Assembly (NCBI GenBank): GCA_001786765.1
Contig: MFTH01000015.1
Location: forward strand, 1,548-65,547
Direction: 5' to 3'
Length of the DNA stretch: 64,000 bases
DNA from: Candidatus Nomurabacteria bacterium RIFCSPHIGHO2_01_FULL_37_25
Lineage (GTDB): Bacteria > Patescibacteriota > Minisyncoccia > Phycocordibacterales > UBA9973
Translations under genes and position numbers: made by a program
Shown: one piece after another, positions 469 through 41,259 of the stretch
Position numbering within the stretch: position 1 is the first letter of the stretch
Layout: the number at the start of each line of letters is the position of its first letter
The notes under the pieces: model-generated
Database searches by the model: none
What the model was told of the DNA's origin: nothing
The model's input: the letters and a program-made list of their open reading frames with translations, nothing else

Positions 469-1758
469 ATGGCCAGAATTTGGAATCATTCGACAAAACT
501 CATGACAGGTAAACACAAACAATCATCCTTCGACTACGCTCAGGACAGGAATACCCCTCTTAAACCCCATACCAGTTCGCTACGGGGCAAGCGAAAAGTC
601 TTCGTAGCAATATCAGGAGGGGTAGATAGCGCAGTTTCTGCGGCTTTACTTTTGAAAAAAGGTTACGAAGTCGTCGGGGTTTTTATTAAGACTTGGCACC
701 CGGATTTTTTAGAGTGTAACGAAGAAGAAGAGCGACGCGACGCTATGCGTATAGCGGCTCATTTAGACATTCCATTTTTGACTTTTGATTTCGAAGATGT
801 CTATAAAAAAGAAGTGGCGGATTATATGATTTCTGAATATAAAAAGGGGCGAACGCCAAATCCGGATGTAATGTGCAATAAAGAAGTAAAATTTGGCGCA
901 TTTCTTAAAAAAGCTATTTCAATGGGGGCAGATTTTGTGGCGACTGGGCATTATGCTCGTAATGAAAATTCAAAGAATTTTCCCGCCTTCGCCCTCGGAG
1001 ACATAGGACAGGGGACCCACGGCTCCCAAAATTCTTTGAATTTTCATTTACTAAAAGGTATTGATTTTTCTAAAGATCAAAGTTATTTTTTATGGACATT
1101 AAAACAAGAACAATTAAAAAAAATCTTATTCCCAATTGGGCATTTAAAAAAAATAGAAGTTCGTAAATTAGCTAAAAAATTTAATTTACCAGTAGCAGTA
1201 AAAAAGGATAGTCAAGGGATATGTTTTTTAGGCGATATAAATTTAAAAGAATTCTTAAAACATTATATTAAAGAAAAAAGAGGAAAAGTGCTTAACGAAA
1301 AGAGAGAAGTAATAGGATATCATAATGGGGTAGTTTTTCACACACTTGGAGAACGACATGGTTTTAGCATTACCAAAAAAAATCCAAATGATGGGCCGTA
1401 TTATATAATCGGTAAAAATATTAAAAAAAATATTCTGATAGTTTCGCAAAACAAAAATTTAATAAATTCCCCCGCCTTCGCCCTCGGAGACATAGGACAG
1501 GGGACCCACGGCTCCTCAAATTTATTAAATTTTGTTTTCCTGATAAAAAATGTAAATTGGATTCACGAAACACCAAAATTAAATAAAACTTACACAGCTC
1601 AAATTCGTTATCATGGAGAATTACTTTCTTGTAAGGTAAAAATTACTGGCAAAACAAAAGCAGAGATTGTTTTTCAAAAGCCAATATTAGTCGCTTCCGG
1701 TCAATCTTGCGTCATCTATGATGGGGATATTTGTTTAGGTGGAGGAGTGGCGCATTAA
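469..1758 (+). CDS. mnmA: tRNA-specific 2-thiouridylase MnmA
   Basis: PP-loop motif VFVAISGGVDSAV, C-terminal MnmA-like region; 429 aa is longer than typical because of two inserted repeats. Confidence 0.85.
   Translation: MARIWNHSTKLMTGKHKQSSFDYAQDRNTPLKPHTSSLRGKRKVFVAISGGVDSAVSAALLLKKGYEVVGVFIKTWHPDFLECNEEEERRDAMRIAAHLDIPFLTFDFEDVYKKEVADYMISEYKKGRTPNPDVMCNKEVKFGAFLKKAISMGADFVATGHYARNENSKNFPAFALGDIGQGTHGSQNSLNFHLLKGIDFSKDQSYFLWTLKQEQLKKILFPIGHLKKIEVRKLAKKFNLPVAVKKDSQGICFLGDINLKEFLKHYIKEKRGKVLNEKREVIGYHNGVVFHTLGERHGFSITKKNPNDGPYYIIGKNIKKNILIVSQNKNLINSPAFALGDIGQGTHGSSNLLNFVFLIKNVNWIHETPKLNKTYTAQIRYHGELLSCKVKITGKTKAEIVFQKPILVASGQSCVIYDGDICLGGGVAH
982..1026 (+). repeat. GC-rich 45-nt repeat copy 1, in frame inside mnmA
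   Basis: cccgccttcgccctcggagacataggacaggggacccacggctcc is identical to the copy at 1472-1516; encodes PAFALGDIGQGTHGS. Confidence 0.8.
1472..1516 (+). repeat. GC-rich 45-nt repeat copy 2, in frame inside mnmA
   Basis: Identical 45-mer, with flanking AT-rich similarity to copy 1 (aatt..caaatt..aatttt). Confidence 0.8.
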
Positions 1759-1800
1759 TCTTTCTTTTTTATTTTTTTTATTATACAATCTTAGGATGCA

Positions 1801-1921
1801 ATCCCGTTAGAAGCTGCAGTAGCAATTTTATTCATAAATCATGTTTATAAAAAATATAAAATTTACTAATATAATCAGGCATAGTTGCAATTTACTGACT
1901 GCGACTTGCTTCTAACGGGAT
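1801..1921 (+). repeat. Family A palindromic element (ATCCCGTTAGAAGC...GCTTCTAACGGGAT), copy A1
   Basis: 14-bp terminal inverted repeats plus internal extended stem; flanked by direct repeat ggatgcaatcc (1794-1804 and 1918-1928); right end overlaps the alaS ATG. Confidence 0.8.
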
Positions 1922-3701
1922 GCAATCCAATGAAATAAGATCAAGATTTTTAAAATTTTTTGAAAATCGTGGACATAAAATAATTCCTTCGGCTTCGCTT
2001 GTTCCTCACAATGACCCTTCTGCGCTTTTTAATACGGCTGGAATGCAACCTCTAGTGCCTTATTTAATGGGACAAAAACATCCGACAGGAAAGCGTATTG
2101 CAGACGTGCAGAAATGCGTGCGCACAGGAGATCTGGATGATATTGGCGACAACAGGCATCTTTCTTTTTTTGAAATGATGGGCAACTGGTCTCTTGGAGA
2201 TTATTTTAAGGAAGATGCTATCAAGTGGAGTTACGAATTTTTGACTTCAAAAAAAGAAGGTCTTGGGCTTGATCCAAACCGGCTTTATTTTACAGTTTTT
2301 GAAGGAAATGAAAATGCGCCATATGATGAAGAATCAAAAAAAATTTGGATGAATTTGGGAATTCCAGAACATCGTATTTATGCGCTTCCAGCAGATGACA
2401 ATTGGTGGAGTCCGGGAGACAATGGTCCATCAGGCCCGTGTAGTGAAATGTTTTATGATATGGTAGGTGATGTGGGTGACATAAATCATAAAGAATTTTT
2501 GCTCGCAATTAAAGAAGAGCATGTAGTCGAAATCTGGAATGATGTGTTCATGGAATACGAAAAGAAAAATGGAAAAGTTGTTGGTAAATTAAAACAAAAA
2601 AATGTTGATACTGGCGCTGGACTTGAGAGAATTACAGCGGTGATGCAAGGCAAAAAAACTGCTTATGATACGGATTTATTTAAACCTGTAATGGAAATCA
2701 TAAAAGCCAAATCAAAAAATTACAATGCTAAATCGGCTCGTATAATCGCAGACCATTTGCGCGCTAGTATTTTTATAATTTCCGAAGGCGTATTGCCTTC
2801 TAATAATGGTAGAGAATACATATTGCGTCGTCTATTGCGCAGGGCTGTTAGGCATGCGGATAATATTGGTTTTCCAGAGAATAAACTTGCTCTTAGTTTG
2901 GCAGTGATATTCATAAAACAGTACGCTGAAATTTATCCAGAATTAAAAGAAAAAAAAGATTTAATCACAGGGCAGATTCTAAAGGAAGAAAACAGATTCA
3001 GGGAAACATTGTCTAAAGGTTTAAAAGAATTTGGAAAAGGCACAGATCCGTTTATTTTATTTACGACTTATGGTTTTCCAATAGAACTCACTCTTGAACT
3101 TGCAAAAGAAAAAGGAGTAAAAATTAATATTGAAGATTTTAATAGAAAGATGATAGAACATCAGAAACTTTCTCAAACTGCATCAGCAGGGATGTTTAAG
3201 GGGGGATTAGCGAATCATAATGAAAAGACAATCAAGCTTCACACCGCGCACCATTTGCTTTTGGCCGGACTTCAAAGTGTTGTAGATAAAAATGTAAAAC
3301 AGCGAGGCAGTAATATCACTGAAGAAAGGTTGCGAATAGATTTCACTTGTGACCATAAATTGACCGAGGAAGAAAAGAAAAAGGTGGAAGATTGGGTAAA
3401 TGATAAAATTAAACGGGGGTTAAATGTCGTGCGTAAAGAGATGCCACTTAAAGATGCAGAAAAAATTGGAGCAGAAATGGAATTTGGCGCTAAATACACA
3501 GATATAGTGTCTGTGTATTTTATAGAAGATAAAGCTGGCAATATTGTGTCAAAAGAATTTTGCGGTGGTCCGCATGTCAAGAATACGACAGAATTGTATT
3601 CTTCATTACGAGAAAAATCTGGGGATAATAGCCCATTTAAAATTCAAAAAGAAGAAGCAGTAGCGCAAGGAATTCGACGCATCAAAGCTGTACTTTTGTG
3701 A
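1920..3701 (+). CDS. alaS: alanyl-tRNA synthetase, short form lacking the C-terminal C-Ala domain
   Basis: N-terminal class II core (FNTAGMQP), editing-domain HxxxH (HTAHHLL) and GGPHV; only 593 aa. Confidence 0.85.
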   Translation: MQSNEIRSRFLKFFENRGHKIIPSASLVPHNDPSALFNTAGMQPLVPYLMGQKHPTGKRIADVQKCVRTGDLDDIGDNRHLSFFEMMGNWSLGDYFKEDAIKWSYEFLTSKKEGLGLDPNRLYFTVFEGNENAPYDEESKKIWMNLGIPEHRIYALPADDNWWSPGDNGPSGPCSEMFYDMVGDVGDINHKEFLLAIKEEHVVEIWNDVFMEYEKKNGKVVGKLKQKNVDTGAGLERITAVMQGKKTAYDTDLFKPVMEIIKAKSKNYNAKSARIIADHLRASIFIISEGVLPSNNGREYILRRLLRRAVRHADNIGFPENKLALSLAVIFIKQYAEIYPELKEKKDLITGQILKEENRFRETLSKGLKEFGKGTDPFILFTTYGFPIELTLELAKEKGVKINIEDFNRKMIEHQKLSQTASAGMFKGGLANHNEKTIKLHTAHHLLLAGLQSVVDKNVKQRGSNITEERLRIDFTCDHKLTEEEKKKVEDWVNDKIKRGLNVVRKEMPLKDAEKIGAEMEFGAKYTDIVSVYFIEDKAGNIVSKEFCGGPHVKNTTELYSSLREKSGDNSPFKIQKEEAVAQGIRRIKAVLL

Positions 3702-3713
3702 TACAATTAAGCG

Positions 3714-4913
3714 ATGGGAATTTTTTCGAGAAATAAAGAAAAAAGCAAATTAGTTCTGGTTTTTGATATTGGTTCTTCTTCTGTCGGGGGAACACTTTTT
3801 TATATGGAGAAGTCCAGAATTCCTAAAATAATTATGTCCCTCCGTGAGCCCATAATTTTACAAAAAACTCTTAATATTGATAAGTTTTTATCTTCAACCG
3901 CAAAATCTCTCGATATTGTCGTTAATAAAATTTATAAAGCAGGTATCGGGAAACCCGAAGCGATTTTTTGTGTTCTTTCGTCGCCTTGGCATGTTTCTCA
4001 AATTAGAGTTATCAGACTTGAAAAAAATACACCTTTCATTTTTACTACCAAGCTAGCTGATGATTTAATTCAAAAAGAAATAGCTCTTTTCAAAGAAGAG
4101 TATTTAGCAAAATATTTACACACAGAAAGCCCGGTGAGATTAATTGAATTCAAAAATATCAAAACAATGCTAAATGGCTATGAAACACTAAGTCCCCTAG
4201 AACAAAAAACTAAAGAATTTGAAATGACTATTTTTATTTCAGTTAGCTCAGAGTATATTTTAAAAAAAATAGAAGAAACAATCAGAAAATATTTTCATTT
4301 TAAAAATGTAAAATTCTCTTCTTTTACACTGTCTTCTTTTGCGGTAGCGCGTGATATAGATATTAACCAAAAGAATTTTCTTTTAATTGATATTGGCGGG
4401 GAAGTAACAGATATTTCTATGATAAAAAAGAATGCATTACATGAATCAATTTCTTTTCCATTAGGTCGTAATTTTATAGTACGAAAAGTTGCGTCCGCCT
4501 TAAGTTGTTCGCTTAGTGAAGCGCAATCATACATTTCTCTTTTACAAGACGGACATGCGACTGATTTTATGACAAAAAAACTTAAACCAGTTATAAATAA
4601 ATTCCAATTAGAATGGTTGTATGAGTTCCAGAAATCTTTAGCCAATCTTTCTAGTGATATTTTTATTCCCGCGACTATTTATCTGACTACAGATAAAGAC
4701 TTACTAGATTTTTTTCGTCAAACAATTGAAGCTGAACAGTTTAATCAATATACCTTAACCGAATCAAAATTTAAAGTTATTTTTTTGAGCGCGGAAGTTT
4801 TTCGTAATATGGTGGTATTTGGAAATGGTGTAATTCGTGACCCTAGCCTGATTATTGATTCTATTTATATAAATCGGTTTTTAACTGACTCCGTTTTATC
4901 GGAGCGAGTATAA
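3714..4913 (+). CDS. actin-like ATPase, PilM/FtsA-like (putative)
   Basis: N-terminal LVFDIGSSSVGG phosphate-1-like motif; length about 400 aa; weak call. Confidence 0.35.
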   Translation: MGIFSRNKEKSKLVLVFDIGSSSVGGTLFYMEKSRIPKIIMSLREPIILQKTLNIDKFLSSTAKSLDIVVNKIYKAGIGKPEAIFCVLSSPWHVSQIRVIRLEKNTPFIFTTKLADDLIQKEIALFKEEYLAKYLHTESPVRLIEFKNIKTMLNGYETLSPLEQKTKEFEMTIFISVSSEYILKKIEETIRKYFHFKNVKFSSFTLSSFAVARDIDINQKNFLLIDIGGEVTDISMIKKNALHESISFPLGRNFIVRKVASALSCSLSEAQSYISLLQDGHATDFMTKKLKPVINKFQLEWLYEFQKSLANLSSDIFIPATIYLTTDKDLLDFFRQTIEAEQFNQYTLTESKFKVIFLSAEVFRNMVVFGNGVIRDPSLIIDSIYINRFLTDSVLSERV

Positions 4914-4917
4914 TTTT

Positions 4918-6249
4918 ATGTCAAAATATTTACTGCAAGATATGATAAAAGCAAAAAATGCAAATCAGCAGACGCAAATACCTCAAAAAAAGGCTCGTTT
5001 TGACACTGTATTGTCAATAAAAAATTCTGCAAGAAACAATACAGATAATGTTTCGAGGGGGCAAGTAAATGGAACGCGGTACACACTTTGGTCTGTGGCA
5101 ATTATATCAATAATATTTTTTCTTTTTTCTCTTTCGTATTTATTTTTGAGCGCAGTGGTTACAGTAAATCCTAAAATACAAGAGATAACTTTGAACGAAA
5201 GTTTATCTGCTACCAAAGACTCCAATAAGGATGGTTTATTTTTCAATTTACTAGTAGACAATGTTTCTGGAGAAGAGAAGAGAGATATTCAAGCGAATGA
5301 GCAAAAAGATGTTTCAAATAAAGCCGTAGGCACTGCTGTCATTTTTAATTTTTTTAGTTCTTCTCCTCAAAGACTTTCCATAGACACAAGGCTTGAAGGT
5401 TCAAATGGTAAAATTTATAAAACACAGAAACAGTTAATCGTGCCGGGAATGAAAAATGACACTCCCGGGTCTATAGAAGTGGACATTTATGGAGCTGAAG
5501 CGGGCGAAGAATATAATAGTGGTCCGCTTGATTTTTCCATTTTTGGTTTTAAAGGAAGCCCTAAGTATTCTAAGTTTAAAGTGAGGACAAAGACTGGAAC
5601 AAAAATAACTGGTGGATTTATTGGAAAAGTTAATGTTATATCTGATACTGATAAGGCAGCTATTTTGACCGAATTAAATTCATCTCTTAAAACAAAGCTT
5701 TTAGCTAAAGCTACCAATCAGATTCCACCCGGTTTTATTCTTTTTAAAGATGCTATTTTTTTGAATACTGAAGAACCCATTATTTCTCTTACCCCGGATC
5801 AAAATAATAATTTTACAATAACACTCAAAGGCACTCTTTTCGGTTTTTTGTTGAATGAACAAAAATTGACACAAAAAATCGCGCAAGACAATATTGATAA
5901 ATATGATGGCAGTGACGTGTATATATCAAATATTAGAAATTTAACTTTTTCTATTTCTACCGTGCATGCGCAAGAATGGCAGACGAACCTTTCTGATAAA
6001 AAAAATATTCCTGTTGAAAATTTACAAAAGATAGATTTTAATTTATCTGGTGTTGCAAAAATCGTTTGGAAATTAGATGAGAATCAGCTGATAAATGATT
6101 TCTTGGGAAAATCAAAAAAAGATTTCAACCAAATACTATCAGAATATGACAACATTGATTCTGCTAATTTAAAAATCAGTCCTTTTTGGAAAACTTCTTT
6201 GCCTGATAAAATAAAAAATATAAAAATAATTATAAACTATCCTAAGTAA
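4918..6249 (+). CDS. membrane-anchored hypothetical protein (one N-terminal TM helix)
   Basis: Hydrophobic segment YTLWSVAIISIIFFLFSLSYLFL after a polar N-terminus; no recognisable catalytic motif. Confidence 0.4.
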   Translation: MSKYLLQDMIKAKNANQQTQIPQKKARFDTVLSIKNSARNNTDNVSRGQVNGTRYTLWSVAIISIIFFLFSLSYLFLSAVVTVNPKIQEITLNESLSATKDSNKDGLFFNLLVDNVSGEEKRDIQANEQKDVSNKAVGTAVIFNFFSSSPQRLSIDTRLEGSNGKIYKTQKQLIVPGMKNDTPGSIEVDIYGAEAGEEYNSGPLDFSIFGFKGSPKYSKFKVRTKTGTKITGGFIGKVNVISDTDKAAILTELNSSLKTKLLAKATNQIPPGFILFKDAIFLNTEEPIISLTPDQNNNFTITLKGTLFGFLLNEQKLTQKIAQDNIDKYDGSDVYISNIRNLTFSISTVHAQEWQTNLSDKKNIPVENLQKIDFNLSGVAKIVWKLDENQLINDFLGKSKKDFNQILSEYDNIDSANLKISPFWKTSLPDKIKNIKIIINYPK

Positions 6250-6251
6250 TC

Positions 6252-6388
6252 ATGAATTACGAAACTCGTCGAAGGCATGTCTTTTTTAGGGGGTTTCGAG
6301 GCTGTCGAGCCGAGAACTTCAGGATTTTTCAAGCTTCGAAAAATCCGTACCCTAGAAAAAGACATGCCTAGAAAGAGTTTCGTAATTC
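6252..6388 (+). repeat. Family B MITE-like element, copy B1 (full length)
   Basis: Terminal inverted repeats gaattacgaaactc/gagtttcgtaattc; internal core ggggtttcgaggctgtcgagccga shared with four other loci. Confidence 0.75.
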
Positions 6389-6487
6389 AAAGTAAGTAAA
6401 ATATATCTCTTCTTGCGTTTGTGCTTTGTTTATATTGTGATATGATATAAATATGAAAAAGAGGAAAATAAAAGGTAAAATATTTTC

Positions 6488-6754
6488 ATGAGCGACCACA
6501 AGAATGAAAAATTGTTAATTGTTAAGGGAGCTATAACCGAAGCTTTACCCTCTACTTTATTTAAAGTGAAAATACTTACTAATAATGCTCCGCATAACAA
6601 TGCAAACTCCGAAGATAAAGAAAAAGAGCAGGAAATTTTAGCTTACCTTTCAGGGAAAATGCGTATGCATAGAATTAAAGTTTTAATTGGGGATTTAGTC
6701 GAAATTGTGCTTGATCCTTATGGAGGAAAGGGGAGGATAGTTAAAAGGTTGTAA
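6488..6754 (+). CDS. infA: translation initiation factor IF-1 with an internal ~18-aa insertion
   Basis: S1-like IF-1 signature ...LSGKMRMHRIKVLIGDLVEIVLDPYGGKGRIV; sits upstream of rpmJ-rpsM as in alpha operons. Confidence 0.8.
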   Translation: MSDHKNEKLLIVKGAITEALPSTLFKVKILTNNAPHNNANSEDKEKEQEILAYLSGKMRMHRIKVLIGDLVEIVLDPYGGKGRIVKRL

Positions 6755-6844
6755 TTTTTTTAAGAATAGTGTATTATGATGGAACGGTTTTAAAAAGAGT
6801 AATAGTATCCAAAAAATAAGGGTTTTTTCCTTGTTTTTTATTTT

Positions 6845-6955
6845 ATGAAAATTAAATCAGCGATAAAAAAAATTTGCGATAATTGTAAAGTTATCAGACG
6901 TCAAAGGCACTTAAGAGTGACTTGTTCTAATCCTAAGCATAAGCAAAAACAATAA
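6845..6955 (+). CDS. rpmJ: 50S ribosomal protein L36
   Basis: Not in the ORF track (37 aa); translation [36 protein letters not shown] matches the L36 zinc-ribbon pattern. Confidence 0.85.
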
Positions 6956-6966
6956 TTTTATTTATT

Positions 6967-7347
6967 ATGAGAATACTTGGAATCACAATACCAAATGAAA
7001 AGAGGCTTGAAATCGGTCTGACTTGTCTTTATGGTATTGGTATTTCAAAAGCTCGTAAAATTTTAGATCAGTCTGGTATTGATCGTGGTCGTCGCGCAAA
7101 AGATTTAACTTTAGATGAAGAGAATAAAATTCGTATTGTAATTGAAGGAATTCTAATTGAAGGAAATTTAAAGAGAGAAATCGGAGCAAATATAAAGAGA
7201 ATAAAAGATATTAAAAGCTACCGAGGTATTCGTCATATAAAAAGATTGCCGGTTCGGGGACAAAGAACGAAAACAAATTCTAGAACTGTTCGGGGCAATG
7301 TCCGAAGGACAATGGCGTCAGGTAAAAGAAAAGAAAGCAAGACGTAA
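6967..7347 (+). CDS. rpsM: 30S ribosomal protein S13
   Basis: MRILGITIPNEKRLEIGLTCLYGIG, typical S13 N-terminus, and operon position. Confidence 0.9.
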   Translation: MRILGITIPNEKRLEIGLTCLYGIGISKARKILDQSGIDRGRRAKDLTLDEENKIRIVIEGILIEGNLKREIGANIKRIKDIKSYRGIRHIKRLPVRGQRTKTNSRTVRGNVRRTMASGKRKESKT

Positions 7348-7407
7348 AATATAAAAATCTTAGAGTATCAAGCAAATAGAAAAAGTTAAAGTCTAAAGCT
7401 TAAACAA

Positions 7408-7839: not shown

Positions 7840-7874
7840 AAGAATTATAAAATTATTAGAGTATAATTTTAAAA

Positions 7875-8480: not shown

Positions 8481-8538
8481 ATTATTCCACTAGAGGTGGA
8501 CAAGTATTATTAAAATTAAAAGTAACTTTATATAAATT

Positions 8539-9522: not shown

Positions 9523-9531
9523 AAGAATAGT

Positions 9532-9885: not shown

Positions 9886-9886
9886 T

Positions 9887-9998
9887 CCCGAACGAAATCG
9901 CGGACGCATAAAATAAGTAAAATTATGAAACTGATTAAATATTTTATAAATAATAATAAAAAGGACAACGAAGCGTAAGCGTACGCGTCCTATTTCGT
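9887..9998. repeat. imperfect inverted repeat in the rplQ-rplM spacer (tcccgaacgaaat...atttcgtacggga)
   Basis: Arms near 9887-9908 and 9977-9998 are near-complementary. Confidence 0.4.
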
Positions 9999-10003
9999 AC
10001 GGG

Positions 10004-10372: not shown

Positions 10373-10376
10373 GTAT

Positions 10377-10850
10377 ATGCCAGAAGAATTAATTGAAAAA
10401 TCAAAACCTGCCCGCAATGCTTCGCATAGCGATACAGGCGGGGATAAATATATTGAAGCCGTAGGAAGACGAAAAACTTCGACTGCCAGAGTGCGTATTA
10501 CAAAATCCGCAAAAGCCAGTTTTTTAGTAAATGGTATTGATAGTAAAGAATATTTCAAAACAGAAGGAGAACGTCGTTTAATTTTAGATCCAATAATAAA
10601 GGGATTGAAGGGGGAACAAGGAAAGGCGAGTTTAAAATGGAATGTGGAAGTGCATGTTTCGGGTGGGGGAGTTCATTCTCAATCTGAAGCAATACGACAC
10701 GGACTTGCTCGCGCTCTTTCCGTATTTGACCCAGAGACTCGCGGAAATTTAAAAGATTTAGGATACTTAAAACGCGATCCGAGAGCCAAAGAACGTAGAA
10801 AATTCGGTCTTAAAAAAGCTCGCAAAGCTCCTCAGTGGAGCAAACGCTAA
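10377..10850 (+). CDS. rpsI: 30S ribosomal protein S9 with an N-terminal extension that carries a GC-rich repeat
   Basis: S9 core starts at ...GRRKTSTARVRI and ends with the basic C-terminus ...KKARKAPQWSKR; the first ~25 aa are extra. Confidence 0.85.
   Translation: MPEELIEKSKPARNASHSDTGGDKYIEAVGRRKTSTARVRITKSAKASFLVNGIDSKEYFKTEGERRLILDPIIKGLKGEQGKASLKWNVEVHVSGGGVHSQSEAIRHGLARALSVFDPETRGNLKDLGYLKRDPRAKERRKFGLKKARKAPQWSKR
10404..10443 (+). repeat. Family C GC-rich palindromic insert (aaacctgcccgcaatgcttcgcatagcgatacaggcgggg), in frame in rpsI
   Basis: Near-identical sequence at 40835-40874 inside scpB; encodes KPARNASHSDTGG versus KPAHNASHSDAGG. Confidence 0.8.
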
Positions 10851-11597: not shown

Positions 11598-11603
11598 AAG
11601 TTG

Positions 11604-19430: not shown

Positions 19431-20981
19431 ATGCCAAAGCCAAATCGAGTTCAAATAATAAAATACGGACCTCCGCCACCAGAATTACCTGTTTTTGGCA
19501 AGGTAAAACCGGAAGATGTTTCTTTTATTGGGCGGACAAATTATGTGGCTTCACTGGAAGAAAAGAAGTTTATTTTTGGCATTAAGCGAATAGACAGAAG
19601 ACGCCACCTTTATATCATAGGGAAGTCAGGTGTGGGTAAAACCAAGCTTCTCGAGCTCATGCTTCGACAGGATATTACGTACAAGCATGGGCTTTGCCTG
19701 ATTGACCCACACGGAGATGTGATAGAAGCAATGCTTGACTACATACCAAAAGAACGCATTGAGGACGTCTGCATAATAGACCCCACTGACCTTGATTTTC
19801 CAGCTTCTTTTAATCCGCTCGCGAATGTTGATCCATTATTCAAATTTCAACTAACTCAAGGATTAATCGAAGTTTTTCAAAAACAATTTGGAGCAAACTG
19901 GACACCAAGACTGGAGCACGTTTTCCGTTTTACTTGTCTCGCGCTTTTAGATTATCCGCATGCCACTATGCGCGGAATGATATCTATGCTAACAGATAGA
20001 AATTATCGGCAGAAGGTGGTGGAATATATTACGGACGACATGGTAAAAAGATTCTTCGCTATAGAATTCGCCGATTGGTCTGAAAAATTTGACACCGACG
20101 CCATCATTCCTTTAGTAAATAAACTCGGGCAGTTTCTTTCTGACCCGCTACTACGCAATATTTTTGGACAAAAGCAAAACAAGATAGATATCAGTAAATT
20201 GATGAATGATGAGAAAATTATTTTGATTAATCTTTCAAAAGGTCGCCTCGGTGAAGAAAACTCTTCTTTCCTCGGTTCTATATTTTTAACCAAGATCAAA
20301 CAAGCTGGTATGGAACGCGCCGCTATCCCTGAAAAAGAACGCAAGGACTTTTATATATATGTAGATGAGTTTCAAAATGTGGTAACGCAAACATTTGAAA
20401 ATATTCTCTCTGAAGCGCGCAAATACGGACTCAACCTTACTATGGCGCATCAGTATGTAGGTCAGATTATTACTAAGGTTCATCAAGCTGTGCTCGGCAA
20501 TTGTGGAAGCATCATAACCTTCCGCGTTGGCGGGGAAGACGCAGTTAAGATGAAACCCGAATTCTCTCCACTATTTGATGTGAAGGATATGATTAATCTT
20601 GCCGTGGCGGAATTCTACATAAAAATGACAATAGACGGTGAATCCTATGATCCATTTTCAGCCGAGACTCTACGGGTATTACCTCCAACTCATCCATCAT
20701 ATAAACAAGAAATAATTGACTCATCTCGTAGAAAATATTCTATTCCAAAAGGGGATGCGGCTAAACTCATTGCTGAAGAAGAAGCTACGATAATCAGAAG
20801 CGCAGAAGAAAAAGCGATTATTGAGAGTAAGGCTAAAAGGCTTGCCCGTAGCGCTACGTCCGAAGAAAAAGAGGGGAATGGGGTGGAAGCCCCAACGCTT
20901 GAAGAGGTCGGGGTCCCGACCGAAAGCGTCGGGGAAAAACCTAACCCAAAAACTTCGCAAGAAGCGGAGCCTATGATATAA
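19431..20981 (+). CDS. soluble T4CP/TrwB-like P-loop ATPase, paralog 2
   Basis: GKSGVGKT, DPHGD, IYVDEFQNV; shares long blocks with 14961-16970 (e.g. GQFLS.P.LRNI.GQ, SKGR.GE.NSS.LG); the C-terminus carries a GC-rich repeat. Confidence 0.6.
   Translation: MPKPNRVQIIKYGPPPPELPVFGKVKPEDVSFIGRTNYVASLEEKKFIFGIKRIDRRRHLYIIGKSGVGKTKLLELMLRQDITYKHGLCLIDPHGDVIEAMLDYIPKERIEDVCIIDPTDLDFPASFNPLANVDPLFKFQLTQGLIEVFQKQFGANWTPRLEHVFRFTCLALLDYPHATMRGMISMLTDRNYRQKVVEYITDDMVKRFFAIEFADWSEKFDTDAIIPLVNKLGQFLSDPLLRNIFGQKQNKIDISKLMNDEKIILINLSKGRLGEENSSFLGSIFLTKIKQAGMERAAIPEKERKDFYIYVDEFQNVVTQTFENILSEARKYGLNLTMAHQYVGQIITKVHQAVLGNCGSIITFRVGGEDAVKMKPEFSPLFDVKDMINLAVAEFYIKMTIDGESYDPFSAETLRVLPPTHPSYKQEIIDSSRRKYSIPKGDAAKLIAEEEATIIRSAEEKAIIESKAKRLARSATSEEKEGNGVEAPTLEEVGVPTESVGEKPNPKTSQEAEPMI
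20904..20935 (+). repeat. Family C3 GC-rich hairpin (gaggtcggggtcccgaccgaaagcgtcgggga), in frame at the C-terminus of ATPase paralog 2
   Basis: Encodes VGVPTESVGEK; same element in recR (25871-25917) encodes VGVPTASVGNK. Confidence 0.75.
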
Positions 20982-25452: not shown

Positions 25453-26100
25453 TTATTGTCTATTCTTCAGAGCATTTTTGAGAGTGTCATTGTCGGAGTA
25501 TTCGAGTTCGGTGCCAGTGGAAAGCCCTTTACCGAGAGAGGAAATTTTGATGCCAGATTTTTCTGCCGTATCTTTAAGTTGTTCTCGAATATAAGAATCA
25601 GTATGGTCGCCTTGAGGGCTTAAGGAAAAAGCTAAAATTATTTCTCTCAGTTTATTTGGGTTTTCATCTTTTGATATTTTTTGCTTCAATTCTTCAATCC
25701 TCACTCTATTTTTAGTATTTTTCTCAACAATAGGCACGAGTCCGCCTAAAATAAAATATTTACCATTATAAATTCTACTTTTTTTTACACTCTCTAAATC
25801 AGAGTCTTTTTCAACAATCATCAGAATGGAAGAGTCCATATTTTTATCAGAGCAGATTTCACATATCTTATTCCCGACGCTTGCGGTCGGGACTCCGACC
25901 CTATTAGGGCGTCGGAGAAAAAATCTAAAACATTCTTTACATTGCGATATATCTTTTTTTAAATCTAAAATTAAGCTAGATAAATTTTCTGTATAACCAT
26001 TAGTTCGAGACATTAAAAAATAAACAAAACGTCTTGCTTGCCTCTCTCCAATTCCCGGAAATTCTTTAAAAATTTCAGCTAATTTGTCTATAATATCCAT
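25453..26100 (-). CDS. recR: recombination protein RecR, with a repeat inserted between the two CxxC halves of its zinc finger
   Basis: HhH N-terminus, CKECF...(21 aa)...CEICSD, Toprim region; the start codon abuts element A2. Confidence 0.85.
   Translation of the reverse strand: MDIIDKLAEIFKEFPGIGERQARRFVYFLMSRTNGYTENLSSLILDLKKDISQCKECFRFFLRRPNRVGVPTASVGNKICEICSDKNMDSSILMIVEKDSDLESVKKSRIYNGKYFILGGLVPIVEKNTKNRVRIEELKQKISKDENPNKLREIILAFSLSPQGDHTDSYIREQLKDTAEKSGIKISSLGKGLSTGTELEYSDNDTLKNALKNRQ
25871..25917 (-). repeat. Family C3 GC-rich palindrome (tcccgacgcttgcggtcgggactccgaccctattagggcgtcggag), in frame in recR
   Basis: Self-complementary ends tcccgacgc/gcgtcggag; encodes RRPNRVGVPTASVGNK inside the RecR zinc finger. 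Confidence 0.75.
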
Positions 26101-26222
26101 CCCGTTAGAAGCAGATCGCGATCAATTCACGTATCTGATATTTTATATTATTAACTTTTCCAATATTACTTAATTTCATATTTTGTTTATATTTAAATTG
26201 CGATCGCGGCTTCTAACGGGAT
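26099..26222 (+). repeat. Family A palindromic element, copy A2
   Basis: atcccgttagaagc...gcttctaacgggat; the extended stem gcagatcgcgatca/ttgcgatcgcggc covaries with other copies; the left end overlaps the recR start codon (CAT on the plus strand). Confidence 0.8.
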
Positions 26223-27716: not shown

Positions 27717-27835
27717 AAAAACTAAAACATAACTTTTGAAGGGGTTTCGAGACTGACGAGCACTGAACTTCAAGATTTTTCAAGACTAATTTTTATTTGA
27801 AAAATCCGTACCGAAAAAAGTTCATGTTTTAGTTT
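27717..27835 (+). repeat. Family B MITE-like element, copy B2 (divergent ends)
   Basis: Core ggggtttcgagactgacgagc...aaaaatccgtacc shared with B1; own inverted ends ctaaaacataactttt/aaaagttcatgttttag. Confidence 0.65.
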
Positions 27836-29152: not shown

Positions 29153-29167
29153 AAGTTATCCACATGT

Positions 29168-29198: not shown

Positions 29199-29206
29199 TA
29201 TATACT

Positions 29207-37308: not shown

Positions 37309-39885
37309 TTATTTATCCAAAAACTTCTCAATAATTTTTTCATCTCTTTTTAGCCAAGCGATATTGCCTTCTAGTCGCTCTAGGACTTGCTCTATAGCGC
37401 GTTTAGCGCCCGGAGCATCATGAGTGGTAAAGAATTTTTTGAAAGACCTCAAGTGTTTTACTTCTGCAGTTCCCCCTATCGCTTTGACTAATCGCGACAA
37501 TGTATGTCCACCGTCGCCATAGCGTAAGACAAGTGTCTTCCAGTTTTTTCGAATAAAATCAAACCAAATATCACGACCCACCACATTTCCTCCTACAGAG
37601 AAAATGATGCTGATGCTGTCTTGAGCGCGGACGTGTTTTGATAATGAAAATTCACAAGCGAGTTTTAATAACTTAGGATCTTGGAAATCTCCCAAGGCGT
37701 TGCCAATTCTATTTTTCTCCTCATGCAAAGTTTCTCGCTTGTATTTTTTTATAAAAGTTTGATATTCTTTTCTGCCGCCATTTGTGGCTACAACTGCATA
37801 TATGCTTGCGCGAATATCAGGATTAATATAGCCTCCAGATTGCATTTTTGCAAATTTTTTTCTCGCTTCAGAAATTATTTTTTTATCACCAGAACGTCCA
37901 GCGCGAGAAATCGCAAGTGAACGAAGTAAAGTATCAGTATGAGTTTCATTTTTCTTTTTTTCCCAACCGAGCTTCGTAGCGAGAGGGGAGAATAATTTGA
38001 GTATTAGCCCACCCAATTTAATTTTCATTTTCGTTTTAGCGAGAAGGGCTTCGAGTCTTCCGAGACCCATCGCAAGCTCAAGCCAAACACTATAATTATC
38101 TTCATTTTCATAGCTAGATAAAAATTCCAATGCATAACTCGTAGAAATAGCGCCTGCTTCTGCTAGAGCGAAAAGGTCTCTGATGATACCAAGTCTATCG
38201 CGAGGAGATAAGAGTTTGTTTTTTACAGGTATTTTTAGTTTTTCTAAAAGTTCTCTGGAATACGCTGTTCGATAAAAACCAGCCTCACCAAAGTTTAGTT
38301 TCAGAAAATTCTTTCTTAGTGCAAATTTTCTCTCAACGCGAATATTTTTCTGCTGAAAAATTGCTATACTCGGCTCGACAGCCTGCGCAATGTTTCGCGA
38401 AAATTGCACTTGCGACGAATTTTTGATAGGCACTTGCCATAAAGTTTTATCTTTTATTTTAGATTTAGAAATAGGGCTTGCAAAAAATCTTTCTTGAGAC
38501 AAATTTATTTTTTTATTTACAATATCTGCTCTTATCACCGGATAGCCAGATTTTGAAGTCCAGTTATGCATTATTTTTGTAACGGGCTTTTTGGAAACTT
38601 TTTCAAATGCTTGCCAAAGATGGAGAGTTTCTGTATTTTTATAACTATGCTTTTTTAAATAATACCGCAGTCCGTCTCTAAAATCTTTTTCTCCTAAATA
38701 ATCAGCAAGCATGCGAATGATTGACGCTCCTTTGGCATACGATACTTCATCAAATATTTCACCAATTTCATCAGGATGATATACTTCGATTTCAATAGGA
38801 TGAGTATTAAGAAGAGCGTCTAGCCGTAATGCCGCGCCTAATTCGTTAGTAGAAAATTGAGTCCAAATGTCCCATTTGGGAAAAAGTTTATCAACAGCTA
38901 AATATTCTATATAGGAAGCAAAACCTTCATTTAACCATAAATGCGTCCACCACTGCATCGTCACTAAATTGCCAAACCATTGATGCGCTATCTCGTGCGC
39001 AATAACAAGCGCGACCCATTGTTTATTTGATAGAGATGAATGATCTTCGTCAACCAAAAGCGCGCTTTCTCGGTAGGTGATTGCGCCCCAATTTTCCATC
39101 GCCCCAGATGTAAAGTCTGGTATAGCTATCATGTCTAGTGCAGGTAGGGGGTAAGCAATGTTAAAATATTCATTATAAAATTCTAAGGTTTTCACTGCGC
39201 ACTCTAATGCAAATTTAGCTTGATGTTTTTTTCCAAAAGTAGTAAAAACACGCACCTTTATATTATTTTTTGTTTTAGATTCAAGATATTCAAAATCACC
39301 TACAATAAACGCTACTAAATATGTAGACATCTTTGGCGTGGGAGAAAATCTCACAATTTGGTATCCTCCTTCATGCTCCGATACTGAAACTGGTAAAGTG
39401 TTTGAAATAGCGCTTTTGCCTTTTTGGATAATAAGTGAAATATGGAAAATGGCTTTTTGCGCTGGTTCATCAAAACAAGGGAAAGCCCTTCTTGCATCTG
39501 TGGGCTCAAACTGCGTTGTTGCTATATGATGTTCTTTATCTAAAATAAAATATTTACTTTTGTAAAACCCTCGCATTTTATCATTGAGTATTCCTCTAAA
39601 TACGATAGTGAGTTTTGTTTTGCCAATAGGAATAAATTTAGAAAAAATAAAAGTTGCTGTTTCGTTTTTTTTATTATAAGACACTTCAGCGAACAGCTCA
39701 CCTATGCGAACTGTTGCTATTTCAAGCTCTTTTGAATGAAGAGTTAATGTTTTAGTTTTTTTAAAAACAGAAAATGTTATAGTTTCCACGCCTTCAAAAG
39801 TAAAATTATCCAAATCTGGCTTTAGCTCTATATTGTATTCTATCGGAATAATGTTTTTTGAAAGTCGGACTCCTTTTAATTTCAT
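37309..39885 (-). CDS. pepN: aminopeptidase N (M1 family zinc metallopeptidase)
   Basis: GAMENWG exopeptidase motif and HEIAHQWFGN...(18)...E zinc-binding motif. Confidence 0.9.
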   Translation of the reverse strand: MKLKGVRLSKNIIPIEYNIELKPDLDNFTFEGVETITFSVFKKTKTLTLHSKELEIATVRIGELFAEVSYNKKNETATFIFSKFIPIGKTKLTIVFRGILNDKMRGFYKSKYFILDKEHHIATTQFEPTDARRAFPCFDEPAQKAIFHISLIIQKGKSAISNTLPVSVSEHEGGYQIVRFSPTPKMSTYLVAFIVGDFEYLESKTKNNIKVRVFTTFGKKHQAKFALECAVKTLEFYNEYFNIAYPLPALDMIAIPDFTSGAMENWGAITYRESALLVDEDHSSLSNKQWVALVIAHEIAHQWFGNLVTMQWWTHLWLNEGFASYIEYLAVDKLFPKWDIWTQFSTNELGAALRLDALLNTHPIEIEVYHPDEIGEIFDEVSYAKGASIIRMLADYLGEKDFRDGLRYYLKKHSYKNTETLHLWQAFEKVSKKPVTKIMHNWTSKSGYPVIRADIVNKKINLSQERFFASPISKSKIKDKTLWQVPIKNSSQVQFSRNIAQAVEPSIAIFQQKNIRVERKFALRKNFLKLNFGEAGFYRTAYSRELLEKLKIPVKNKLLSPRDRLGIIRDLFALAEAGAISTSYALEFLSSYENEDNYSVWLELAMGLGRLEALLAKTKMKIKLGGLILKLFSPLATKLGWEKKKNETHTDTLLRSLAISRAGRSGDKKIISEARKKFAKMQSGGYINPDIRASIYAVVATNGGRKEYQTFIKKYKRETLHEEKNRIGNALGDFQDPKLLKLACEFSLSKHVRAQDSISIIFSVGGNVVGRDIWFDFIRKNWKTLVLRYGDGGHTLSRLVKAIGGTAEVKHLRSFKKFFTTHDAPGAKRAIEQVLERLEGNIAWLKRDEKIIEKFLDK

Positions 39886-39931
39886 ATGTTTCAGTATATC
39901 TTTTTTTACAAAAAATGCTACTATTATAAGG

Positions 39932-40672
39932 ATGGAAAAAGAAATTTATCAAATAAAGACAACTGGCTTTGAAGGTCCATTCGGTCTACTTTTAGAGTTA
40001 ATAGAGAAGCGAAAGCTTTTTATCAACGATGTATCACTTGCGAGTGTTACAGAAGATTACTTGAATTATATGCAAAAATTGGGCGGACTTAATAGCGCAG
40101 AAATCTCCTCTTTTGTTCTAGTGGCGTCAACATTGATTCTAATCAAATCAAAATCTCTTTTGCCAAATTTAAATCTAACAACAGAAGAAGAAGGAGATAT
40201 CAAAAATCTAGAAGAAAGATTGCGTTTGTATGAGCTATTTATAAAATTAAGCAGAAACATAAAAAATAATTTTGCTAAAAAAATAATTTTCGCGCCGCTT
40301 GAAAGAAAAAATGATGTTTTGGTATTTTTGCCAGATGACCAAATTACCAAAGAAAGTATGATGATTTTTGCTCGTAATGTCTTAGGAACAATACCTAAAA
40401 AAGTATTCTTGCCGAAAGTAGAAGTGCGAAAAGTCATCAGTATTGAAGAGATGATTGAAAAATTAACGCAAAGAATAAAAAATTCGCTAAAAATGAATTT
40501 CAAAGACCTAAATGGGGAAATAGCCACCCGTGAAGAAAAAATAGTTATGATTGTGGGATTTCTTGCTATGCTAGAGCTTGTTCGGCAAGGAATTATTCAT
40601 GCAGCGCAAGATAGCGGTTTTTCCGACATTATTCTAGAGAAAACGGAAACTAAAGAAAATAATAATTTATGA
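39932..40672 (+). CDS. scpA: segregation and condensation protein A
   Basis: FEGPFGLLLELIEKRKLFINDVSL (ScpA N-terminus); start moved from the track's 39833 to the Met at 39932, because the longer ORF overlaps pepN. Confidence 0.8.
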   Translation: MEKEIYQIKTTGFEGPFGLLLELIEKRKLFINDVSLASVTEDYLNYMQKLGGLNSAEISSFVLVASTLILIKSKSLLPNLNLTTEEEGDIKNLEERLRLYELFIKLSRNIKNNFAKKIIFAPLERKNDVLVFLPDDQITKESMMIFARNVLGTIPKKVFLPKVEVRKVISIEEMIEKLTQRIKNSLKMNFKDLNGEIATREEKIVMIVGFLAMLELVRQGIIHAAQDSGFSDIILEKTETKENNNL

Positions 40673-41259
40673 TCACCTTAGAATCAAAAATTGAAGCAAT
40701 ACTTTTTTGGAAAGGGGAGCCAATTTCACGAAAGAAACTCGTAGAGATTTTAAAAGTTACTCCAAATGAAATAAACGAGGCAATAGAGAAATTAAAAATA
40801 AACTTGCAAAGTAGGGGAATAGTCTTATTAGAAAAACCCGCCCACAATGCTTCGCATAGCGATGCAGGCGGGGAAAACGAAATCACGCTCGGCACGGCGC
40901 CTGAGCTCTCTAAACTTATTGAGGATTTACAGAAAGAAGAATTAAATAAAGAACTTTCTAAAGCCAGCCTAGAAACACTCTCAATAATTCTTTATAAAAA
41001 TGGAGCAAATAGAGCTGAAATTGACTATATCAGAGGAGTCAACTCTAGTTTTACTTTGCGCGCTTTATCTATCAGGGGTCTCGTAGAGAAAAATCTAGAT
41101 TCTAAAGATAGTAGAAGGTATATTTATAAACCGAGTTTTGAATTAATGTCTTATATGGGCATAAAATCTATGGAAGAATTACCTGACTATGGTGAAGTTA
41201 ACAGCTCAATAAATACTGCAGTAAAAAATTTAGAAGAGGAGGATAATGGGAAGGAATAA
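40669..41259 (+). CDS. scpB: segregation and condensation protein B, carrying a GC-rich insert
   Basis: Tandem winged-helix pattern; ATGA overlap with scpA. Confidence 0.75.
   Translation: MITLESKIEAILFWKGEPISRKKLVEILKVTPNEINEAIEKLKINLQSRGIVLLEKPAHNASHSDAGGENEITLGTAPELSKLIEDLQKEELNKELSKASLETLSIILYKNGANRAEIDYIRGVNSSFTLRALSIRGLVEKNLDSKDSRRYIYKPSFELMSYMGIKSMEELPDYGEVNSSINTAVKNLEEEDNGKE
40835..40909 (+). repeat. Family C GC-rich palindromic insert, in frame in scpB (aaacccgcccacaatgcttcgcatagcgatgcaggcgggg + gc-rich tail)
   Basis: 37/40 identical to the rpsI copy; followed by a second GC-rich stretch cgctcggcacggcgcctgagctc. Confidence 0.8.

What the first reader, a model, noticed from the sequence alone, without database searches (positions are those of the whole stretch)
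982..40909. GC-rich mini-palindromes inserted in frame inside conserved housekeeping genes (RPE-like behaviour)
Several conserved genes in this roughly 33% GC genome contain short islands of about 65% GC that are shared between unrelated genes and keep the reading frame. The same roughly 40-mer (aaacc[ct]gccc[ga]caatgcttcgcatagcgat[ag]caggcgggg) sits in the N-terminal extension of rpsI (10404-10443) and in the middle of scpB (40835-40874). The hairpin gtcggga..tcccgac occurs in the RecR zinc finger (25871-25917, encoding VGVPTASVGNK) and in the ATPase-2 tail (20904-20935, VGVPTESVGEK). It also occurs in a small-peptide gene (30272-30305). infA has an 18-aa insertion containing aatgctccgcata, similar to the rpsI/scpB core. 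The encoded peptides sit at positions expected to be surface loops or termini. This is the pattern described for Rickettsia palindromic elements and would be notable in this lineage.
Basis: partly seen in the sequence, partly recalled or inferred. Interest (0 to 1): 0.7.

Follow-up and report, generated by a model that had tools for sequence, protein, structure and literature searches.

The report
Mobile GC-rich hairpins inside essential genes
Short GC-rich hairpin repeats (36 to about 80 bases) have inserted in frame into surface loops of essential genes of this AT-rich Nomurabacteria genome, and near-identical copies occur in other candidate-phyla bacteria and, for the 36-base one, in unrelated phyla such as Verrucomicrobia.

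Summary
Three repeat families sit in frame in six housekeeping genes of a ~35% GC Candidatus Nomurabacteria contig.

- B is 36 nt (CCTGCCCGCAATGCTTCGCATAGCGATGCAGGCGGG): intact in rpsI and scpB, decayed in infA.
- C is a 45-46 nt double hairpin in recR and in a VirD4-like ATPase tail.
- A is a 45-nt GC core between AT-rich inverted arms, present twice in mnmA.

Orthologue alignments show all are insertions. Most ScpB and RecR orthologues have the empty site. B entered the ScpB loop at two positions 6 nt apart in different lineages, each time exactly 36 nt with no target duplication.

B's core occurs in more than 118 genome loci with unrelated flanks: many CPR lineages, Verrucomicrobiota, Kiritimatiellia, Lentisphaerae and others. 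It lies in about 60 unrelated host proteins, 43 in one frame (PARNASHSDAGG). C occurs in at least 116 metagenome loci, 44 of 48 host clusters in sense.

Best reading: REP/RPE-like, non-autonomous selfish hairpin elements, filtered by selection to tolerant loops and benign reading frames. No mobilising enzyme was found. The 30272 hairpin is not a demonstrable member, and 40873-40909 is native scpB. No prior description was found by sequence or concept search.

The parts
965..1044 (+). Element A, copy 1, in mnmA (469-1758). Left AT-rich arm 965-981, 45-nt GC core 982-1026, right arm 1028-1044. Encodes NSKNF-PAFALGDIGQGTHGS-QNSLNF. Compared with the empty allele in L125, 63 nt (982-1044) are extra.
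   Evidence: for the repeat. One search shows a 19-aa gap in solved MnmA structures. Searches show orthologues with and without the insert.
1454..1533 (+). Element A, copy 2, in mnmA. Arms 1454-1468 and 1518-1533, with the same 45-nt core at 1471-1515. The arms differ from copy 1 at three compensated positions and remain complementary.
   Evidence: One search gives within-genome identity of the two sites as 0.85, against 0.64 between genomes.
6575..6628 (+). 18-codon insertion in infA (6488-6754). The first 36 nt (6575-6610) are a decayed B copy that has lost its GC stems.
   Evidence: One search finds the core with 3 mismatches. In one search, IF1 homologues align to residues 9-29 and 48-87 only. 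In one search, L077 and L078 have an intact B at this site.
10407..10442 (+). Element B (36 nt) in the N-terminal extension of rpsI (10377-10850), encoding PARNASHSDTGG.
   Evidence: In one search, S9 homologues align from residue 23-28 onward. One search shows the same site filled in L025. One search finds it on 19 contigs.
20889..20934 (+). Element C (double hairpin; the first hairpin carries one G>A change) in the C-terminal tail of a VirD4/TraD-like ATPase (19431-20981), encoding APTLEEVGVPTESVG.
   Evidence: (I12). In one search, orthologue L247 carries C at the same place.
25872..25917 (-). Element C (two tandem hairpins, 46 nt) between the two Cys pairs of the RecR zinc finger (recR 25453-26100), encoding LRRPNRVGVPTASVG.
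   Evidence: One search shows a 14-aa gap in solved RecR. One search shows a spacer of 13 aa in 49 of 120 orthologues, against 22 here.
40837..40872 (+). Element B (36 nt) in a turn of scpB (40669-41259), encoding PAHNASHSDAGG.
   Evidence: Searches show the empty allele GAAAAA|GATAAT in L248 and exactly 36 nt extra here.
30272..30305 (.). Stable intergenic hairpin named in the finding. It shares only the GTCGGGA/TCCCGAC arm sequence with C, and membership is not shown.
   Evidence: (no related copies in 1.6 Mb of loci).

Best explanation
These are several families of small, non-autonomous, selfish GC-rich hairpin repeats. They resemble REP elements and the short Rickettsia palindromic elements in kind.

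They get copied into new sites as exact units with no target duplication. They are later homogenised between copies and finally eroded by AT-biased mutation.

Inside genes, only a subset survives. The length must be a multiple of three. The site must be a surface loop or a terminus. The orientation and frame must give a short, hydrophilic, Gly/Ser/Pro/Ala-rich peptide, which is translated as part of the protein.

Shown here: insertion relative to orthologues, independent insertions at neighbouring sites, unrelated flanks, nesting, frame and orientation filtering, decay, and within-genome homogenisation.

Inferred: the copying step itself. I think the most likely route is a hairpin-shaped single-stranded DNA intermediate handled by a structure-specific enzyme acting in trans, which recognises the shared terminal stems (CCYGCC...GGCRGG for the B superfamily). 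That enzyme was not found.
For: Insertions, not ancestral sequence
- About 95 of 120 ScpB orthologues have the empty site. The RecR zinc-finger spacer is 13 aa in 49 of 120 orthologues.
- Some MnmA orthologues lack the insert at site 1, others at site 2.

Independent, exact insertions
- B lies between AAA|GAA in the window.
- In L250 it lies 6 nt further on. Each insertion is exactly 36 nt with no duplication.
- In L249 a 39-nt element with the same CCCGCC...GGCGGG ends but a different interior occupies the first position.

Dispersal
- B's core is in more than 118 loci of species-representative genomes with unrelated flanks. There is no target consensus and no excess of flank complementarity.
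- Hosts include CPR classes, 15 Verrucomicrobiota loci (one on a closed 4.18-Mb chromosome), Kiritimatiellia and Lentisphaerae.
- C is in at least 116 metagenome loci.
- Nested copies occur in L054, L094 and L075.

Selection filter
- B lies in 60 unrelated host-protein clusters, 43 of them in one of five open frames (p = 8e-18).
- That frame is the most benign: GRAVY -1.11 and no Cys.
- Sense versus antisense is 45:7 inside ORFs and 18:9 between co-directional genes. For C the figures are 64:1 and 7:4 (Fisher p = 0.001).
- Hosts include EF-P, SecA, several aminoacyl-tRNA synthetases, GyrA, topoisomerase I, an RNA polymerase subunit (Pfam RNA_pol_Rpb2_6) and RF.

Turnover
- infA holds a decayed copy.
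- The two mnmA copies share genome-specific variants.

Precedent
- Intragenic REPs are documented in Opitutus terrae and Rickettsia conorii (PMC3733652).
Against: - No transposase or other recurrent gene lies next to intergenic B copies: 116 neighbouring proteins fall into 137 Pfam families, none seen more than 3 times.
- No IS200-like TnpA was found by tblastn in 1.75 Mb of loci. This is a weak test, because the query was written from memory.
- There is no conserved flanking tetranucleotide such as IS200/IS605 and GTAG REPs have.
- The density seen is about one per 10 kb for all three families together in the window. B-like stems occur roughly once per 60 kb in loci not chosen for B. Whole-genome copy numbers were not measured.
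- Near-identity of B across phyla is unusual for REP-type repeats. Part of it comes from searching with an exact 18-mer, since variants with other interiors exist.
- The 44:4 sense bias of C is not explained by peptide hydropathy.
Confidence: 0.75

Rival explanations
1. The hairpins are functional modules kept by selection. They could be binding sites for a conserved protein, or mRNA structures that tune stability, termination or translational pausing, recruited repeatedly into genes and spacers.
For: - B's sequence is highly conserved at the nucleotide level across phyla, including at synonymous positions.
- The C hairpin-1 stems occur as two fully paired states, T-A in 27 copies and C-G in 36, with few intermediates. 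95% of stem pairs are Watson-Crick.
- Orientation is biased towards sense, 2:1 even between genes.
- The arms of A stay complementary through three compensated changes.
- B recurs in tRNA-leader arrays.
Against: - Close orthologues differ in presence and absence. Different families are interchangeable in the same loop.
- The infA copy has decayed.
- Hosts have nothing in common beyond being housekeeping genes.
- There is no excess of G.U over A.C pairs on the sense strand: 10 versus 9.
- No Rfam family matches.
Confidence: 0.12
2. The elements are selfish and mobile, but without a dedicated transposase. New copies would arise through host replication or repair, either by template switching to an ectopic copy or by capture of hairpin oligonucleotides at breaks. 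Gene conversion would then keep copies alike.
For: - No mobilising gene was found.
- There is no target motif and no target duplication.
- The two mnmA copies are homogenised within each genome.
- B is associated with local tandem duplications upstream of tRNA genes.
- CGTC-type REPs also lack a known transposase (PMC3733652).
Against: - The boundaries are exact and identical in more than 100 copies. The imperfect-hairpin signature is conserved: T3.G34 in 97 of 109 copies and C7.A30 in 87 of 109. This looks like recognition by a specific enzyme.
- Families with different interiors share the same ends.
- Spread across phyla is hard to explain by intragenomic repair alone.
Confidence: 0.2
3. The shared segments are ancestral or convergent low-complexity protein linkers, not inserted DNA.
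For: The peptides are loop-like and sit where loop length varies among homologues.
Against: - Identity is at the nucleotide level and includes non-coding copies.
- The majority of orthologues have empty sites.
- The same DNA is read in other frames in other hosts.
Confidence: 0.02
4. Assembly or sequencing artefact, for example chimeric reads or adaptor-like sequence.
For: The same short sequence appears in many unrelated MAGs.
Against: - The identical rpsI, scpB and mnmA products were recovered from 17-22 contigs assembled in different projects.
- Copies occur in a single-cell genome (L056) and on a closed chromosome (L091).
- Copies are in frame, show frame bias and occur as sequence variants.
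- Nothing matches in phage or plasmid collections.
Confidence: 0.01

Closest known systems
Intragenic REP elements, including the short Rickettsia elements RPE-4 and RPE-6 (CGTC-type REPs) and the GTAG REPs of Opitutus terrae (Di Nocera et al. 2013, PMC3733652)
   Same: Both are 20-40 nt imperfect GC-rich palindromes, alone or as dimers, found between genes and also inside genes for known proteins. Inside genes they add 10-30 residues. Several families can share one genome, and CGTC REPs have no known transposase.
   Different: B and C have no unpaired GTAG or CGTC tag and no CCA tail. About 60% of the B copies found lie inside ORFs. No RAYT was found. One 36-nt sequence type is shared by several phyla.
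Rickettsia palindromic element RPE-1 (Ogata et al. 2000; cited from my own knowledge and as reference 14 of PMC3733652)
   Same: A palindromic repeat inserted in frame into many unrelated, often essential, genes. It is translated and tolerated at surface positions. No transposase is known.
   Different: RPE-1 is about 100-150 bp and confined to Rickettsia. Here the inserts are 36-63 nt, belong to several families, and occur in CPR bacteria and other phyla. Sequence relatedness to RPE-1 was not tested.
GC clusters and hairpin elements of AT-rich mitochondrial genomes in yeast, sponges and placozoans (e.g. PMC4478555 and PMC7813641, seen; details from my own knowledge)
   Same: Short GC-rich palindromes that multiply in very AT-rich genomes, enter coding regions and show presence/absence polymorphism.
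   Different: These are organellar and of unrelated sequence. Some mitochondrial elements are bypassed or disrupt the frame. Here the frame statistics indicate translation.
Bacterial MITEs (e.g. Correia, ERIC, Coxiella QMITEs; PMC5896051, PMC10969869)
   Same: Non-autonomous repeats with inverted ends that can lie inside ORFs. Element A, with its inverted arms around a core, looks most MITE-like.
   Different: MITEs are usually 100-400 bp, have sequence-conserved terminal inverted repeats and make target-site duplications. B makes none, and A's arms vary in sequence while staying complementary.

Membership tests
REP elements (GTAG/CGTC super-families, RAYT-associated) | Imperfect palindrome of 20-40 nt that forms a GC-rich stem-loop | tested here: met
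   B is 36 nt, with MFE -16.9 and -20.3 kcal/mol and z -2.5 and -4.1. The C hairpins are 21-25 nt each.
REP elements (GTAG/CGTC super-families, RAYT-associated) | Unpaired GTAG or CGTC tetranucleotide at one end, and a short CCA-like tail for CGTC REPs | tested here: not met
   Base counts at the 12 positions either side of 109 B copies show no conserved base outside the 36 nt. The CGTC in C is inside the stem-loop junction, not a terminal tag.
REP elements (GTAG/CGTC super-families, RAYT-associated) | Predominantly extragenic, downstream of genes, at tens to thousands of copies per genome | tested here: inconclusive
   45-52 of about 110 B copies and 64 of 103 C copies lie inside long ORFs. 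The window holds 7 copies in 64 kb. Whole-genome counts are not available.
REP elements (GTAG/CGTC super-families, RAYT-associated) | Associated Y1 (RAYT) transposase gene flanked by the repeats | tested here: inconclusive
   There is no IS200-like hit in 1.75 Mb (query from memory) and no recurrent family next to intergenic copies. The rest of the genomes was not searched.
Rickettsia palindromic elements (RPE-1 type) | Palindromic repeat inserted in frame in unrelated protein genes, read as part of the protein | tested here: met
   Translation is inferred from the frame bias and was not observed.
Rickettsia palindromic elements (RPE-1 type) | Insert lies at tolerant (surface, loop or terminal) positions | tested here: met
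   The positions are the gap between the RecR zinc-finger Cys pairs, two MnmA loops, the S9 N-terminal extension, an IF1 turn and the ScpB turn. The AlphaFold model of MnmA was too poor to add anything (pLDDT 52.8).
Rickettsia palindromic elements (RPE-1 type) | Length about 100-150 bp and sequence homology to the Rickettsia families | tested here: not met
   The inserts are 36, 45-46 and 63 nt. Homology to RPE consensus sequences was not tested.
MITE | Target-site duplication flanking the element | tested here: not met
   Comparing empty and filled ScpB alleles shows a clean 36-nt (or 39-nt) insertion. The same holds for AlaRS in L074 against the window.
MITE | Sequence-conserved terminal inverted repeats derived from an IS | tested here: inconclusive
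   The B superfamily shares the terminal stems CCYGCC...GGCRGG across different interiors. A's arms covary instead of being conserved. No parent IS was seen.
Known structured RNA families (Rfam 15) | Match to a covariance model at or near its gathering score | tested here: not met
   There are no hits in the window at gathering thresholds. Around B, only chance-level hits appear at E > 0.6.

The most novel reading that the evidence does not exclude
B (and perhaps C) would be a pan-bacterial mini-element. It would be a 36-nt hairpin kept almost invariant while moving between phyla as different as Patescibacteria and Verrucomicrobiota. Its copying would depend on a conserved or horizontally shared structure-specific machinery not yet linked to any repeat family.

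The near-exclusive sense orientation in genes and the recurrent insertion into tRNA-leader fragments would then hint at a transcript-linked step in its spread or function.
Probability: 0.25. Interest if true: 0.85.

Novelty: new variant of a known kind. Interest (0 to 1): 0.66.

Why it matters
- It extends the Rickettsia-style phenomenon of selfish palindromes living inside essential proteins to the Candidate Phyla Radiation. In these genomes it reshapes loops of ribosomal proteins, translation factors, aminoacyl-tRNA synthetases, SecA, gyrase and RecR.
- One exact 36-nt unit is shared across phyla. That makes the mobilisation mechanism directly testable by co-occurrence genomics.
- In practice, these inserts create spurious "lineage-specific insertions". 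They link unrelated proteins in similarity searches, for example through PARNASHSDAGG and VGVPTESVG. They also mark permissive sites for protein engineering in organisms that cannot be cultured.

Tried and rejected
- Rfam at gathering thresholds, and at E up to 10 around B: nothing.
- tRNA scan of the window: none found.
- Intron-like removal. After deleting B in silico, only 3 copies in the stop-containing frame restore an ORF. All three have short upstream parts, and two of the three are labelled Verrucomicrobia MAGs (L022, L084), so there is no support.
- B interrupting functional tRNA genes. ARAGORN finds no tRNA across the junction after removing B. The fragments are truncated duplicates upstream of intact tRNAs.
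- Preference for insertion into hairpin loops. Mean flank complementarity equals the shuffled value. Only 4.6% of copies have complementary flanks, against 1% in shuffles.
- Conserved target motif or target duplication: none.
- Cultured phage and plasmid collections: no match to B. IMG/VR gave 3 core matches, of which 2 are full copies.
- Transposase hunt: tblastn with IS200 TnpA and a Pfam census of 116 neighbours were both negative.
- Strand asymmetry of G.U versus A.C pairs in C. A first count suggested 11:1, but a stricter count gave 10:9, so I dropped the claim.
- AlphaFold2 of MnmA with 25 orthologues gave mean pLDDT 52.8. This is too poor for structural mapping.
- The GC-rich ORF at 35143-35751 as a candidate mobilising gene: no Pfam or NCBIfam family.
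- Literature: searches for the exact sequence and the peptide gave 0 papers. Concept searches found no description in CPR bacteria.
Full report
**What is in the window**

The window has 35.4% GC and a gene order typical of the end of the ribosomal-protein operon. ScpB is 100% identical to a protein of Candidatus Nomurabacteria bacterium RIFCSPHIGHO2_01_FULL_37_2x. A self-comparison and a scan for small GC islands give three repeat families inside genes.

- Family B is a 36-nt hairpin, CCTGCCCGCAATGCTTCGCATAGCGATGCAGGCGGG. It lies at 10407-10442 in rpsI and at 40837-40872 in scpB. A degenerate copy lies in infA. The core gives 3 matches against 0.1 expected.
- Family C is GGTCGGRGTCCCGACCGMAAGCGTCGGG plus an upstream hairpin. 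It lies at 20889-20934 in the tail of a VirD4/TraD-like ATPase and, on the other strand, at 25872-25917 in recR.
- Family A is a 45-nt non-palindromic GC core between AT-rich inverted arms. It occurs twice in mnmA, at 965-1044 and 1454-1533.
- All copies keep the host frame. The two copies of each family are read in the same frame.

**They are insertions**

- Solved RecR structures have a 14-residue gap exactly between the two Cys pairs of the zinc finger.
- Solved MnmA structures have gaps of 19 and about 17 residues at the two A sites.
- S9 homologues align only from residue 23-28 onward.
- IF1 homologues skip residues 30-47.
- Among 120 close ScpB orthologues, about 95 have the short turn EK-(E/D)N-E.
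- Among 120 RecR orthologues, the spacer between Cys pairs is 13 aa in 49 and 22 aa here.
- MnmA orthologues mostly carry A at both sites, but some lack site 1 and others lack site 2.

DNA of empty and filled ScpB alleles settles the anatomy.
- The empty allele reads GAAAAA|GATAAT|GAA.
- The window has exactly 36 nt after GAAAAA.
- L250 has exactly 36 nt six bases further on.
- L249 has a 39-nt element with the same CCCGCC...GGCGGG ends but another interior at the first position.

So there were at least three independent insertions into one loop, with no target duplication. The same loops of RecR, MnmA and ScpB hold many other GC-rich inserts in other orthologues. Many follow the pattern PA[RS]...[AG]GG, which is the translation of the shared stems.

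**Not an artefact**

The exact rpsI, scpB and mnmA products occur on 19, 22 and 17 contigs from different assemblies. B also occurs in a single-cell genome and on a closed 4.18-Mb chromosome.

**Distribution of B**

In about 110 of them the whole 36 nt is present with only a few variable positions, and the flanks are unrelated.

According to the record titles, the hosts include the following.
- Most CPR classes: Nomura-, Davies-, Woese-, Moran-, Levy-, Gottesman- and Saccharibacteria, among others.
- 15 Verrucomicrobiota loci, with flanks at high GC.
- 4 Kiritimatiellia loci and 1 Lentisphaerae locus.
- MAGs labelled Bdellovibrionales and Gammaproteobacteria.

Part of this identity comes from searching with an exact word. 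In loci not chosen for B, 36-39-nt relatives with the same ends and covarying interiors occur. There is no conserved flanking motif. Flank complementarity does not exceed shuffled pairs, and nested copies exist.

**Distribution of C**

It usually appears as [CYCCGACG-loop-GTCGGR][GTCCCGACCGMAAGCGTCGGG]. The modal length is 43 nt counted from the first stem base. The first stem position is either T-A (27 copies) or C-G (36 copies).

**Selection on what survives in genes**

- B lies in 60 unrelated host-protein clusters, 43 of them in the single frame PARNASHSDAGG. Five frames are open, and p = 8e-18.
- That frame is hydrophilic and free of Cys. The other open frames are hydrophobic or rich in Cys, His and Tyr.
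- Hosts with Pfam matches include EF-P, SecA, Met-, Trp/Tyr-, Ile/Leu/Val-, Ala- and Phe-tRNA synthetases, GyrA, topoisomerase I, TGT, an RNA polymerase subunit (Pfam RNA_pol_Rpb2_6), DprA, KsgA, a release factor and RNase J.
- C lies in 48 host clusters, 44 in sense. It is read in two frames, APTPxGVGVPTESVG and PRRxxGSGSRPxASG.
- Orientation bias is much weaker between co-directional genes: B 18:9 and C 7:4, against 45:7 and 64:1 inside ORFs.
- This points to a filter acting through translation. For C, however, the antisense peptides do not look worse, so that part remains unexplained.
- Copies in the frame with a stop codon do not look like removable introns.

**Turnover**

The infA copy has lost its stems, while orthologues keep an intact B at that site. 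The two A copies in one mnmA gene share genome-specific variants. Identity is 0.85 within genomes against 0.64 between genomes. This indicates gene conversion or repeated replacement.

A's arms differ between copies at three positions but stay complementary. A Saccharibacteria intergenic copy has quite different, yet complementary, AT-rich arms. Empty alleles keep one arm-like stretch or a short AT palindrome. I therefore cannot tell apart three routes: insertion into a palindrome, inverted duplication of the flank, or deletion between the GAATTTT direct repeats.

**Mechanism**

The behaviour fits REP/RPE-type selfish hairpins. This rests on four features:
- exact ends;
- no target duplication;
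- shared ends with variable interiors;
- a conserved imperfect hairpin (T3.G34 wobble in 97 of 109 copies and C7.A30 mismatch in 87 of 109).

Together these suggest recognition of a folded single strand by an enzyme acting in trans. I did not find that enzyme. Neighbours of intergenic copies are ordinary housekeeping genes, and a crude search for IS200-like TnpA was negative. Cultured phages and plasmids lack B, and only two IMG/VR contigs carry a full copy. A repair or template-switch route without a dedicated enzyme therefore stays open.

**Comparison with what is known**

Di Nocera et al. (PMC3733652) describe intragenic REPs, most abundant in Opitutus terrae and Rickettsia conorii (RPE-4 and RPE-6). 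They note that CGTC REPs lack a transposase. B and C lack the GTAG or CGTC tag that defines those super-families. RPE-1 behaves the same way but is three to four times longer and restricted to Rickettsia (from my own knowledge). GC clusters of AT-rich mitochondria are an organellar parallel.

Searches for the exact sequence and peptide returned no papers. Concept searches found no description for CPR bacteria.

**Verdict**

The thing is a new variant of a known kind. What stands out is:
- the small exact unit;
- the strength of the frame filter;
- the hot-spot loops in essential proteins;
- the presence of one sequence type in several phyla.

Two details of the finding do not hold. The 30272 hairpin is not shown to belong to family C. 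The stretch 40873-40909 is native scpB.

Noticed in passing
window 526-549 and 566-586 (5' end of the mnmA ORF): The mnmA ORF has a 38-codon N-terminal extension that orthologues lack. It is built from two further GC-rich motifs, TCCTTCGACTACGCTCAGGACAGG (encoding SFDYAQDR) and CCCATACCAGTTCGCTACGGG. Near-identical copies occur in a Verrucomicrobia locus (L100), a Daviesbacteria locus (L096) and a Moranbacteria locus (L093).
   Followed up: partly
L081 3134-3390; L028 3630-3950; L111 760-945: In three unrelated MAGs, B sits at the D-loop position of a truncated tRNA 5' fragment. The fragment is repeated in tandem together with the promoter region, upstream of an intact tRNA gene (Arg in L081, Thr in L028, by ARAGORN; the intact tRNA in L111 was read by eye only). 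The units are 89 nt and 120 nt long in L081 and L028. No tRNA spans the junction once B is removed.
   Followed up: partly
window 6249-6400, 27734-27784, 34936-35094, 57852-57936: A larger intergenic repeat family is partly palindromic (34-nt arms around a core), with four full or partial copies in the window. Copies at 85-95% identity occur in a Nomurabacteria locus (L063) and a Saccharibacteria locus (L051).
   Followed up: partly
window 35143-35751 (-) and 30616-31080 (+): A 202-aa ORF with 60-65% GC sits in a 35% GC genome, next to a copy of the intergenic repeat. It is a paralogue (31% identity, E 4e-18) of an AT-rich 154-aa ORF 4 kb away. Neither has a Pfam or NCBIfam family. It may be a foreign copy of a local gene.
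   Followed up: partly
window 26093-26222 versus 44576-44702 (inverted), and 42200-42345: A 125-nt stretch upstream of recR is repeated at 87% identity, inverted, upstream of the gene at 44695. Part of it also lies near 42200-42345. Its core, CATCCCGTTAGAAGCAGATCGCGATC, recurs in other loci (L033, L068 and others). It may be a shared promoter or leader.
   Followed up: no
window 30002-30616: A 614-nt spacer without a credible ORF holds two adjacent very stable hairpins at 30228-30305 (-52.7 kcal/mol, z -8.75). They are bracketed by 99-nt direct repeats of 85% identity (30045-30142 and 30458-30555). No Rfam match.
   Followed up: partly
L054 3950-4030; L094 3360-3440; L075 2230-2340: These are nested elements. 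In L054 a 30-nt relative lies inside a B copy. In L094 a B copy lies in the loop of a 32-nt relative. In L075 up to three degenerate copies are telescoped.
   Followed up: no
window, around 46-48 kb: Cumulative GC skew peaks here, and gene orientation switches from mostly + to mostly -. This is as expected at a replication terminus.
   Followed up: no
L035, L008, L068 (B copies): A minority of B copies have the stem asymmetry swapped (CCCGCCTGC...GCGGGCAGG) relative to the core. It looks as if the central 18-20 nt had been inverted between the arms, a flip/flop arrangement.
   Followed up: no
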